A DNA stretch of 40,644 bases from a virus (lineage: Duplodnaviria; Heunggongvirae; Uroviricota; Caudoviricetes): positions 1-40,644 of IMG/VR virus record IMGVR_UViG_2561511241_000001; one strand, written 5' to 3'. Positions 28,262 through 28,818 of the stretch are shown here, piece after piece (within the stretch, counting starts at the first letter, position 1; each line of letters starts with the position of its first letter). The notes below the pieces were generated by a model. It was not told the DNA's origin and did no database searches. It saw only the letters and a list, made by a program, of their open reading frames with translations. Both the position numbers and the translations under genes were made by a program.

Positions 28262-28666
28262 TTACTGTGCGAACACGCAATTTCGGCCTGATGGGGAGCC
28301 GACAATTCTGGACATTTTTTCGCAAATAACAGTTACTTGTTCTCCTTTTTTAAGAGCAGCAGCTGTTGATTTTTCAGAGTCTTGCATCTCCATTCTTGCT
28401 GGCATGAATTCATTTTCAGTTCTGAATTTAATAATTATAGAGTCAGTAAAGTCCTTATCAATGGATTGTACGATACCTCTAACGGCGATTAATTTACCTT
28501 TTAACTGTTCATCGGTAGCGACTTCATTTTCTTCATACTGTTTAAACAGCTGTCGAGCAGTAGTGTTGTAGATTTCTTTTTGCGGTGCCGCAGCTTCCGT
28601 ATCGGATGAGTATGAAGAATTAGAGCCTTTATCGTTATTGCCTGCAAAATATCCAATAATCACCAA
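28262..28666 (-). CDS. membrane-anchored small protein (cargo; possible start-codon defect)
   Basis: 134 aa from a TTG; the in-frame upstream sequence encodes (ATA)KKLLKWILYIFIG, a classic signal anchor preceded by AAGGTGA RBS but starting with ATA rather than ATG; AT-rich; opposite strand inside the tail operon. Confidence 0.45.
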   Translation of the reverse strand: MVIIGYFAGNNDKGSNSSYSSDTEAAAPQKEIYNTTARQLFKQYEENEVATDEQLKGKLIAVRGIVQSIDKDFTDSIIIKFRTENEFMPARMEMQDSEKSTAAALKKGEQVTVICEKMSRIVGSPSGRNCVFAQ

Positions 28667-28818
28667 CCCGATGAAAATATATAAAATCCATTTTAATAAT
28701 TTCTTTATGTTATCACCTTAATGCTAATAATTTATATAGTTACAAATGGTAATGGCTACCACTACAAATTATGGCATTACCAGTAAATATTACTACTGAT
28801 AATAAATATGGGACTTAT

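What the first reader, a model, noticed from the sequence alone, without database searches (positions are those of the whole stretch)
28262..28720. Membrane-anchored cargo gene inside the tail operon with an ATA in place of the start codon
Seen: the minus-strand AT-rich ORF sits between tape measure and DNA-circulation genes, separated from the tape measure by a GC hairpin. In frame upstream of the first TTG lies ATA-AAG-AAA-TTA-TTA-AAA-TGG... (would read MKKLLKWILYIFIGLVIIGYFAG if ATA were ATG), preceded at ideal spacing by AAGGTGA. Inference: a signal-anchored periplasmic protein, plausibly a receptor-blocking or superinfection-exclusion factor, that has lost its ATG by point mutation, initiates at a non-canonical codon, or reflects a sequencing error.
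Basis: seen in the sequence. Interest (0 to 1): 0.4.

Follow-up and report, generated by a model that had tools for sequence, protein, structure and literature searches.

The report
Prophage cargo gene with mutated start codon
A small membrane-anchored accessory gene inside the tail operon of an E. coli prophage has had its ATG start codon changed to ATA by a single G-to-A mutation, which probably nearly silences it; this is an ordinary loss-of-function allele, not a new kind of start signal.

Summary
A minus-strand, AT-rich gene (28262-28708) lies between the tape-measure and DNA-circulation genes. A GC hairpin follows it. ATA (28708-28706) sits where a start codon should be, 3 nt after a 7-nt Shine-Dalgarno (AGGTGAT).

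Every orthologue examined starts at this codon with ATG (one with GTG) and reads MKK(L/I/F)xKW plus a hydrophobic helix. In 55 complete E. coli genomes with this start region, 51 have ATG and 4 have ATA. An ATG allele with an otherwise identical protein exists (WP_024250676.1). ATA is therefore a derived G>A mutation, not a sequencing error: it is seen in 4 complete genomes and on 60 contigs.

The protein belongs to Pfam PF12869 (tRNA_anti-like OB fold) and PHROG 8545 ("superinfection exclusion Sie-like"). The model shows a transmembrane helix, a disordered linker and an OB fold. RefSeq starts the ATA allele at a downstream GTG, which cuts the anchor; that looks like an annotation artefact.

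Other E. coli copies carry a 142-bp 5' deletion, nonsense mutations, a frameshift or IS1, so ATA fits ordinary decay of a dispensable cargo gene. AUA initiates at about 1-2% of AUG, so the allele is likely a strong hypomorph or null. The exclusion function is annotation-level only. Low interest.

The parts
28262..28708 (-). Ancestral reading frame of the cargo (moron) gene: 148 codons plus stop. It belongs to the PF12869 OB-fold family. Codon 1 is ATA here and ATG in relatives.
   Evidence: The ATG form is annotated as the 148-aa proteins WP_000734912.1 and WP_024250676.1.
28706..28708 (-). ATA at the position of the ancestral ATG start codon. The change is G>A at 28706 on the coding strand.
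   Evidence: 4 of 55 complete-genome records have ATA and 51 have ATG; orthologues in other genera have ATG, and one has GTG.
28712..28718 (-). Shine-Dalgarno AGGTGAT, 3 nt upstream of ATA. The in-frame TAA at 28718-28720 overlaps it.
   Evidence: The sequence is identical in the ATG alleles.
28643..28705 (-). Codons 2-22: a basic N-terminus (KK..K) followed by a hydrophobic transmembrane/signal-anchor helix.
   Evidence: predicted helix 2-22; mean Kyte-Doolittle hydropathy 2.16 over 19 residues; conserved in 29 orthologues.
28661..28666 (-). TTG (28666-28664) and GTG (28663-28661) are the first canonical start codons in frame, and both lie inside the transmembrane helix. RefSeq uses the GTG for the 133-aa model WP_000583556.1.
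   Evidence: Starting here leaves only MIIGYFAG of the anchor. No usable Shine-Dalgarno is visible upstream (read from the sequence).
28592..28639 (-). Codons 24-39: a Ser/Asn-rich linker predicted to be disordered.
   Evidence: pLDDT below 50 for residues 24-39; variable in length among orthologues.
28271..28573 (-). Codons 46-146: the OB-fold domain. Invariant Cys129 (28322-28324) and Cys144 (28277-28279) lie within it.
   Evidence: pLDDT 94-98; best PDB match is 3F1Z; invariant columns.
28237..28258 (-). GC-rich hairpin (9 bp, loop 4) followed by a T-rich tail. It is a terminator-like element for the cargo gene and sits between that gene's stop and the tape measure stop.
28230..28818 (.). 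The whole inserted block (589 bp) between the tape measure stop and the DNA circularization start. The same junction in phage SfV is 45 bp with no gene.
26397..28229 (+). Tail tape measure gene (flank).
28819..30147 (+). DNA circularization (Mu N-like) gene (flank). The start is as annotated by RefSeq; the longest ORF starts at 28771.

Best explanation
The gene is a horizontally acquired, reverse-oriented cargo gene ('moron'). It sits in the Mu-like tail module of an SfV/e14-like E. coli prophage integrated at thrW next to proA. It encodes a 148-aa protein with an N-terminal inner-membrane anchor, a flexible linker and a C-terminal OB-fold domain predicted to face the periplasm (PF12869 family).

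In this window a single G>A transition has turned the ancestral ATG into ATA. The Shine-Dalgarno and the rest of the ORF are untouched.

Shown:
- ATA is the derived, minority state.
- An ATG allele with an otherwise identical protein exists.
- The allele is real, not an assembly error.

Inferred:
- Translation now depends on near-cognate AUA, which gives about 1-2% of AUG in E. coli reporters. The allele is therefore a strong hypomorph or a functional null.
- The downstream GTG used by RefSeq would give an anchor-less, mislocalised fragment and is an annotation artefact.
- The mutation is one of several independent lesions of this dispensable gene in E. coli. That is ordinary decay, not a specialised initiation mechanism.

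The intact protein's role is not established. My best guess, at about 0.3, is that it blocks entry of a superinfecting phage at the inner membrane or periplasm. The confidence given here (0.85) is for the start-codon explanation, not for that functional guess.
For: Derived state:
- All 12 sequences printed that keep their N-terminus start with M-K-K, and all 29 aligned orthologues carry the hydrophobic helix.
- At DNA level the codon is ATG in Buttiauxella, Pantoea, Serratia, Burkholderia phage Carl1 and most species representatives. One is GTG and none is ATA.
- A 90-nt probe centred on the codon shows 4 records with exact ATA, 40 listed records with exact ATG (the summary band of 99% or more holds 42, which includes partial matches) and 11 with ATG plus one other SNP, among 55 complete E. 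coli genomes.
- LZSFT34 and EC01307 carry ATG with a protein identical to the window's at all other residues.

Real allele:
- It is in ETEC1749, ETEC4085, FDAARGOS_1277 and CREC_5.
- The 133-aa call of this allele is on 60 contigs.

Family and architecture:
- PF12869 scores 68.6 bits against a 23.5 cutoff and covers residues 2-130.
- PHROG 8545 matches at 1.3e-49.
- The AlphaFold model has pLDDT 86, with helix 2-22, disorder 24-39 and an OB fold 46-146.
- The best PDB match is 3F1Z.

Moron status:
- Low GC and its own hairpin.
- SfV lacks the insert.
- The same slot is occupied in Buttiauxella, in Scandinavium and by a 71%-identical E. coli allele.

Decay spectrum in E. coli:
- A 142-bp deletion removing the RBS, start and transmembrane helix, on 152 contigs.
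- W7 TGG>TAG on 11 contigs.
- Q109 stop in ET474.
- A C-terminal frameshift, P0002.
- An IS1 insertion in EJN001.
- Against these, at least 1000 plus 400 contigs carry intact alleles.

AUA efficiency: 1-2% of AUG, range 0.02-3% (bioRxiv 10.1101/063800).
Against: - No expression data exist for either allele, so 'hypomorph or null' is inferred from reporter studies in other sequence contexts.
- The ORF downstream of ATA is intact in every carrier seen, and the allele sits in at least two mosaic prophage backgrounds. That is also what a tolerated or selected low-expression allele would look like.
- With only one synonymous difference between the ATA copies, selection cannot be measured.
- The exclusion function rests on a PHROG label. 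Close orthologues also occur as stand-alone chromosomal genes with no phage genes nearby, in Pantoea, Pectobacterium and beside the liv transporter genes.
- No strong sigma-70 promoter was found upstream.
Confidence: 0.85

Rival explanations
1. ATA is a working, selected non-canonical start codon. It keeps a costly or toxic membrane protein at a low, tuned level, as AUU does for infC.
For: - The strong Shine-Dalgarno is retained and the ORF is intact in all ATA carriers.
- The allele is found in two mosaic backgrounds and on 60 contigs.
- AUA supports measurable initiation.
- Natural start-codon polymorphism that tunes expression has been reported in commensal E. coli (PMC11445065, listed; title and abstract only were read).
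Against: - No orthologue in any other genus or E. coli lineage uses ATA.
- The allele is rare: 4 of 55 complete genomes.
- Clear null alleles (deletion, nonsense, IS1) circulate in the same population, so loss is tolerated.
- Too little divergence has accumulated since the mutation to show purifying selection.
Confidence: 0.1
2. The true start is the downstream GTG or TTG, as in the RefSeq model WP_000583556.1. The product would be a soluble 133-134-aa OB-fold protein, and the upstream hydrophobic codons would be untranslated leader.
For: - These are the first canonical start codons in frame.
- The RefSeq annotation pipeline (PGAP) chose GTG in all four ATA genomes.
Against: - The same pipeline annotates the full 148-aa protein wherever ATG is present.
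- The Pfam model and all orthologues include the N-terminal helix.
- GTG and TTG lie in the middle of that helix. They have no properly spaced Shine-Dalgarno, only GGG 0-3 nt upstream (read from the sequence).
- The truncated product loses the only hydrophobic window: best mean hydropathy drops from 2.16 to 0.55.
Confidence: 0.03
3. The A at 28706 is a sequencing or assembly error and the gene really starts with ATG.
For: A single-base difference in an AT-rich stretch; there is no other support.
Against: - The identical ATA is found in four complete-genome records from at least two distinct prophage backgrounds and different laboratories.
- The corresponding 133-aa call appears on 60 contigs under several accessions.
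Confidence: 0.01
4. The intact protein is not a phage-exclusion factor. It would be a general envelope or periplasmic binding protein that the phage happens to carry, for example for stress, adhesion or polysaccharide binding. This rival concerns the protein's function only and is compatible with the start-codon explanation.
For: - Orthologues at 55-67% identity sit in chromosomal, non-phage neighbourhoods: Pantoea near copCD-yebY, Pectobacterium after rplS, and another after the liv ABC transporter genes.
- PADLOC gives no match.
- No publication on function was found.
- 3F1Z is a structural-genomics entry with only a putative function.
Against: - The PHROG 8545 label reads 'superinfection exclusion Sie-like'.
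- The family recurs at lysogenic-conversion positions: beside the immunity repressor in Burkholderia phage Carl1, as a reverse gene in the baseplate module of a Klebsiella phage, and at a Serratia prophage edge.
- One BFVD structural neighbour is labelled with the Ltp-type name 'host cell surface-exposed lipoprotein'.
Confidence: 0.45

Closest known systems
Pfam PF12869 (tRNA_anti-like) / RefSeq 'OB-fold protein', 'OB-fold putative lipoprotein'; structural representative PDB 3F1Z (Klebsiella pneumoniae putative nucleic-acid-binding lipoprotein)
   Same: - The HMM match is well above the cutoff and covers anchor plus OB domain.
- The predicted fold matches 3F1Z best: E 1.4e-5, TM-score 0.54-0.65.
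- The layout is the same: an N-terminal membrane attachment followed by one OB barrel.
   Different: - This clade has a transmembrane signal-anchor with no lipobox cysteine (GYFAG-N), so it is not a lipoprotein.
- Sequence identity to 3F1Z is only 17-18%.
- The start codon is mutated in this copy.
PHROG 8545 'superinfection exclusion Sie-like'
   Same: Full-length HMM match: residues 1-146, E 1.3e-49. It is a prophage cargo gene.
   Different: The label is an annotation. I found no experiment behind it for this family.
HK97 gp15, a tail-operon moron next to the tape measure gene whose inner-membrane product blocks DNA entry (Cumby et al. 2012, cited in PMC10884400; details from my own knowledge)
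   Same: - The genomic logic is the same: a small membrane-protein gene with its own terminator inserted beside the tape measure gene.
- It is a plausible analogue for the mode of action.
   Different: - It is not homologous: gp15 is 62 aa and the hhalign probability is 0.4%.
- gp15 is on the same strand as the tail genes; this gene is on the opposite strand.
Clostridioides difficile TcdC and its homologues between cI and int in Lactobacillus/Leuconostoc phages
   Same: - TcdC is a remote PF12869 relative with a membrane anchor plus an OB fold (PMC3575817).
- Its C-terminal domain was reported to be outside the cell (bioRxiv 10.1101/872283; title only, listed).
- Its phage homologues sit in the lysogeny module.
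   Different: - TcdC has an added coiled-coil dimerisation helix.
- It comes from a Gram-positive host.
- Its function is disputed.
- I did not align TcdC with this protein.
Genes with conserved non-AUG, non-GUG/UUG starts (infC and pcnB, AUU)
   Same: A near-cognate AUN codon lies behind a good Shine-Dalgarno.
   Different: In those genes the unusual codon is conserved across species and has a regulatory role (own knowledge). Here it is a rare derived allele, and every orthologue uses ATG or GTG.

Membership tests
Pfam PF12869 tRNA_anti-like (membrane-attached OB-fold proteins) | Sequence match to the family HMM above the gathering score | tested here: met
   68.6 bits against a 23.5 cutoff, E 5.7e-19, residues 2-130 on profile positions 5-131 of 146. 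All 89 homologues that carry any precomputed Pfam hit carry PF12869.
Pfam PF12869 tRNA_anti-like (membrane-attached OB-fold proteins) | OB-fold beta-barrel domain | tested here: met
   AlphaFold2 model with pLDDT 94-98 over residues 46-146. The top Foldseek hits are 3F1Z and aaRS anticodon-binding OB domains. This is a prediction, not a solved structure.
Pfam PF12869 tRNA_anti-like (membrane-attached OB-fold proteins) | Lipoprotein signal (lipobox Cys), as implied by the name 'OB-fold putative lipoprotein' | tested here: not met
   There is no Cys in or after the hydrophobic segment in this clade (GYFAG/N, GYFAS/K). The only Cys are C129 and C144. It is therefore a signal-anchor type, not a lipoprotein.
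PHROG 8545 'superinfection exclusion Sie-like' | Sequence match to the PHROG HMM | tested here: met
   E 1.3e-49, 169 bits, residues 1-146.
PHROG 8545 'superinfection exclusion Sie-like' | Expression from the prophage protects the lysogen against superinfecting phage after adsorption | not testable with these tools
   No experimental report was found for this family. PADLOC has no model that matches.
Phage moron (Juhala/Hendrix sense) | Inserted between two genes that are adjacent in related phages | tested here: met
   In SfV the gap between tape measure and DNA circularization is 45 bp with no gene. Here it is 589 bp.
Phage moron (Juhala/Hendrix sense) | Own terminator, and base composition different from the flanks | tested here: met
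   A 9-bp GC hairpin with a T-rich tail on the gene's strand. GC is 0.29-0.37 against about 0.5-0.57 in the flanks.
Phage moron (Juhala/Hendrix sense) | Own promoter active in the lysogen | tested here: inconclusive
   The consensus scan found no sigma-70-like site upstream of the gene, only one inside it at 28461-28434. By eye, TAGCCA-16 nt-TATAAA (28758-28731) matches 9 of 12. There are no transcript data.
Genes with functional non-canonical (AUN) start codons | The unusual start codon is conserved in orthologues | tested here: not met
   The codon is ATG in 51 of 55 E. coli complete genomes and in other genera. It is GTG once and never ATA.
Genes with functional non-canonical (AUN) start codons | Protein demonstrably initiated at the unusual codon | not testable with these tools
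   This needs N-terminal proteomics, Ribo-RET or reporter fusions.
HK97 gp15-type exclusion protein | Sequence homology to gp15 | tested here: not met
   hhalign probability 0.4%, with 11 aligned hydrophobic columns only. gp15 is 62 aa.

The most novel reading that the evidence does not exclude
The ATA allele is not a dead gene. It would be a selected 'dimmer' setting: AUA-initiated translation keeps a costly inner-membrane exclusion protein at about 1% of normal level. The many independent lesions at the 5' end of this gene (ATA, W7 stop, the 142-bp deletion of RBS, start and anchor) would then reflect recurrent selection against full expression of the membrane-anchored form in some E. coli lineages, for example porcine ETEC.
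Probability: 0.08. Interest if true: 0.4.

Novelty: already known. Interest (0 to 1): 0.15.

Why it matters
There are three practical points.

1. RefSeq's WP_000583556.1 (133 aa, 'OB-fold protein') is a start-codon artefact. Because ATG became ATA, the pipeline fell back on an internal GTG and produced a protein model without its membrane anchor. Anyone using that model for localisation or function prediction would be misled.

2. The gene family is a widespread prophage cargo labelled 'Sie-like', yet I found no experimental characterisation. The natural allelic series described here would be ready-made material for testing what it does. The series comprises two intact forms, ATA, a nonsense mutation, a 5' deletion and an IS1 insertion.

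3. It is a clean natural example of an ATG>ATA lesion behind a perfect Shine-Dalgarno. It could be used to measure AUA initiation in a native context.

None of this changes current understanding of phage biology or translation.

Tried and rejected
- **Sequencing error.** Rejected: ATA is in 4 complete genomes and on 60 contigs.
- **Downstream GTG/TTG as the true start.** Rejected by orthologue N-termini and Pfam coverage.
- **Homology to HK97 gp15.** None.
- **Known defence-system models (PADLOC).** No hit. NCBIfam gave nothing meaningful.
- **Solved structures by sequence profile.** Nothing significant. Only fold comparison found 3F1Z.
- **Rfam scan of 28000-29000.** Only a sub-threshold chance hit to MALAT1.
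- **Literature searches** for PF12869 / tRNA_anti-like / OB-fold together with superinfection exclusion. These returned only TcdC and the unrelated S. aureus PdpSau and P. aeruginosa Tab, so there are no functional data for this family.
- **Promoter scan upstream of the gene.** No consensus hit.
- **One or two origins of ATA.** I tried to decide this from a 3.3-kb SNP table. The local block 28186-29428 is nearly identical in ATA and ATG carriers while the flanks are mosaic, so the question stays open.
- **P0099 (138 aa).** It looked like another N-terminal lesion but is only a contig end.
- **ETEC1749 as the exact source of the window.** Not so. The window differs by 1 SNP, a 1-nt indel and a different tail-fibre segment.

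Full report
**1. The observation**

On the minus strand the sequence reads TAA(28720-28718) GGT GAT AAC ATA(28708-28706) AAG AAA TTA TTA AAA TGG and onward. No ATG, GTG or TTG occurs in frame before TTG 28666 and GTG 28663. The frame closes at TAA 28264-28262. The mechanical ORF list therefore reports only 28262-28666, 134 aa.

Read from ATA, the product would be 148 aa and begin (M)KKLLKWILYIFIGLVIIGYFAG. The stretch AGGTGAT (28718-28712) is a perfect 7-nt complement of the 16S rRNA 3' end (established knowledge) and lies 3 nt before ATA.

A 9-bp hairpin with 7 GC pairs at 28258-28237 is followed by a T-rich tail on the gene's strand. It folds at -20.4 kcal/mol, z = -2.8.

GC content falls to 0.29-0.37 over the gene, against about 0.5-0.57 on both sides. 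The neighbours on the plus strand are the tape measure gene (26397-28229) and the DNA circularization gene (28819-30147).

**2. Where the window comes from**

The window is almost identical to a prophage of porcine E. coli ETEC1749 (NZ_CP122712.1). That prophage is integrated next to tRNA-Thr and proA.

Positions 1-34124 differ from ETEC1749 by one SNP and a 1-nt indel. The tail-fibre segment 34125-35954 is a different variant. Positions 35955-40470 are identical.

The prophage has HK97-type head genes and a Mu-like contractile tail. It is related to SfV, SfII and SfI.

In SfV the tape measure and DNA circularization genes are 45 bp apart. Here 589 bp separate them, and that gap holds a reverse-oriented, AT-rich gene with its own hairpin. 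This is a textbook moron.

**3. ATA is a derived mutation of ATG**

- *Homologues.* A protein search with the ATG-restored sequence found 90 homologues. All those examined that keep an N-terminus start MKK(L/I/F)(L/I/F)KW followed by a hydrophobic helix.
- *DNA level in other genera.* The homologous codon is ATG behind a Shine-Dalgarno in Buttiauxella, Pantoea, Serratia and Burkholderia phage Carl1. It is also ATG in most species representatives of a genome-wide scan. One Erwinia uses GTG and none uses ATA.
- *E. coli complete genomes.* I used two 90-nt probes that differ only at the codon, so that one mismatch drops identity below 99%. Of 55 records with the full start region, 4 match the ATA probe exactly: ETEC1749, ETEC4085, FDAARGOS_1277 and CREC_5. 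The last two have the same chromosome length. Forty listed records match the ATG probe exactly, and 11 more match it with one other SNP.
- *How RefSeq annotates the ATG forms.* Where ATG is present, RefSeq annotates a 148-aa protein: WP_000734912.1 with E57 and WP_024250676.1 with Q57.
- *The closest ATG allele.* The Q57 protein of LZSFT34 and EC01307 is identical to the window's translation at every residue except codon 1.
The 133-aa call that corresponds to the ATA allele is on 60.

The A at 28706 is therefore a real, minority, derived allele and not a sequencing error.

**4. One origin or two?**

A SNP table over 3.3 kb shows that these prophages are mosaic. In the local block 28186-29428, the window, FDAARGOS_1277 (ATA) and EC01307 (ATG) differ from one another at only two or three sites; LZSFT34 (ATG) shares the block up to about 29382. 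Outside that block, FDAARGOS_1277 is closest to EC01307 (10 differences) and far from the window (63 differences).

Either one ATA mutation was moved by recombination, or G>A happened twice. The data cannot decide. Between the two ATA backgrounds the gene differs by one synonymous site (28451), which is too little to test for selection.

**5. The RefSeq model for the ATA allele**

In all four ATA genomes the annotation starts at GTG 28663, giving WP_000583556.1 of 133 aa. That codon lies inside the transmembrane helix. It leaves only MIIGYFAG of the anchor, and the best 19-residue hydropathy window drops from 2.16 to 0.55. Only GGG precedes it, 3 nt upstream. I read this as a fallback by the gene caller, not a biological start.

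**6. What the protein is**

- *Family matches.* Pfam PF12869 (tRNA_anti-like) matches at 68.6 bits against a cutoff of 23.5 and aligns from residue 2, so the family model itself includes the anchor. PHROG 8545, labelled 'superinfection exclusion Sie-like', matches residues 1-146 at E 1.3e-49. PADLOC and NCBIfam give nothing useful.
- *Predicted structure.* An AlphaFold2 model built on 30 orthologues has mean pLDDT 86. It shows a helix at 2-22, disorder at 24-39 and a confident OB-fold domain at 46-146.
- *Structural neighbours.* The best solved neighbour is 3F1Z, a Klebsiella 'putative nucleic acid-binding lipoprotein'. Anticodon-binding OB domains of aminoacyl-tRNA synthetases follow. Among predicted viral structures the top hits are other tRNA_anti-like proteins. 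One larger protein is labelled 'host cell surface-exposed lipoprotein', which is the name of the Ltp exclusion family.
- *Inferred topology.* This clade has no lipobox cysteine, but it has two invariant cysteines in the OB domain, C129 and C144. A basic N-terminus, one hydrophobic helix and a conserved Cys pair suggest an N-in/C-out inner-membrane anchor with the OB domain in the periplasm. This is inference.
- *Remote relative.* C. difficile TcdC matches PF12869 in profile comparison (PMC3575817). Its C-terminal domain was reported to be on the outside of the cell (bioRxiv 10.1101/872283; I saw only the title).

**7. Genomic contexts of relatives**

Prophage or phage positions:
- The same slot between tape measure and DNA circularization is occupied in Buttiauxella (73% identity), in Scandinavium, and by a second E. 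coli allele at 71% identity.
- In Burkholderia phage Carl1 the homologue lies two genes downstream of the immunity repressor on the same strand and is followed by a terminator.
- In a Klebsiella phage a zinc-ribbon-fused homologue is a reverse gene inside the baseplate module.
- In Serratia it lies at a prophage edge beside an acyltransferase.

These are positions typical of lysogenic-conversion genes.

Non-phage positions:
- In Pantoea, in Pectobacterium and in one further lineage, orthologues at 55-67% identity sit among ordinary chromosomal genes.

The family is therefore not exclusively a phage function. I found no paper that tests the function of this family. HK97 gp15 is the classic exclusion moron beside a tape measure gene. 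It is only 62 aa and is not homologous. It is an analogue at most.

**8. What ATA does**

In E. coli reporter systems AUA initiates at 1-2% of AUG, and at 0.02-3% across constructs (Hecht et al., bioRxiv 10.1101/063800). With the Shine-Dalgarno intact, some full-length protein may still be made, but the allele should be a strong hypomorph or an effective null.

The wider population supports a decay reading. Other E. coli copies carry the following lesions:
- A 142-bp deletion (equivalent to 28638-28779) that removes the RBS, start codon and anchor, on 152 contigs.
- TGG>TAG at codon 7 on 11 contigs.
- CAA>TAA at codon 109 in ET474.
- A frameshift near the C-terminus, P0002.
- An IS1 insertion in EJN001.

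Contig counts are not de-replicated for clonal sampling, so they are only rough frequencies.

**9. Verdict**

Its main interpretation is supported: a signal-anchored cargo protein that lost its ATG by point mutation. The sequencing-error alternative is rejected. Functional AUA initiation remains possible but unsupported.

The exclusion role is plausible but rests on annotation alone. Outer-membrane receptor blocking is less likely than action at the inner membrane, because there is no lipoprotein signal.

This is an ordinary loss-of-function or knock-down allele of a catalogued gene family, with a misleading RefSeq start as a side effect. Interest is low.

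Noticed in passing
window 11786-13163 (minus strand): Two adjacent genes lie between the late antiterminator Q and the holin. RefSeq annotates them as a TIR domain-containing protein (12762-13163, 133 aa) and a caspase family protein (11786-12751 as RefSeq annotates it; the longest ORF runs to 12775). This looks like a prophage-borne anti-phage defence pair at the classic cargo site downstream of Q.
   Followed up: no
window 36811-39621 (minus strand): A 936-aa SIR2 family protein gene lies between the pinE/tail-fibre inversion region and the right-hand attachment repeat. 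It is therefore inside the prophage, and it is another likely defence cargo gene.
   Followed up: no
window 1399-1462 and 40062-40125: A 64-bp direct repeat (96.9% identical) overlaps the tRNA-Thr gene at one end. These are probably the attL/attR core sites marking the prophage boundaries.
   Followed up: partly
window about 32429 (baseplate J gene 32183-33241) and 34125-35954: Relative to ETEC1749, the window has a 1-nt indel that leaves baseplate J as an intact 352-aa ORF. RefSeq marks that gene as frameshifted in ETEC1749. The window also has a different tail-fibre / invertible-segment variant. The window therefore comes from a close relative, not from ETEC1749 itself.
   Followed up: partly
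window 28638-28779 (equivalent positions in L023/L024): A common E. coli allele (P0094, on 152 contigs) has a 142-bp deletion between TAA microhomologies. It removes the gene's RBS, start codon and transmembrane helix, and leaves a 128-aa call.
   Followed up: yes
window 28661-28663; RefSeq WP_000583556.1: The RefSeq protein for the ATA allele starts at an internal GTG and lacks the membrane anchor. This is an annotation artefact that propagates under a non-redundant accession.
   Followed up: yes
window 28434-28461 (minus strand): A sigma-70-like match of 11 out of 12 (TTGATA-16 nt-TATAAT) lies inside the coding region of the cargo gene. It is probably a chance match in AT-rich DNA.
   Followed up: no
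L010-L012 (Pantoea), L067 (Pectobacterium), L066: Orthologues at 55-67% identity are stand-alone chromosomal genes with no phage genes within 5-6 kb: near copCD-yebY, after rplS, and after the liv transporter genes. The phage gene therefore has close cellular counterparts.
   Followed up: partly
L008 3632-4300 (Klebsiella phage ST405-OXA48phi1.2) and P0081: Some family members carry an N-terminal zinc-ribbon domain in front of the anchor. In this Klebsiella phage the gene is mis-named 'hydrogenase maturation factor'.
   Followed up: no
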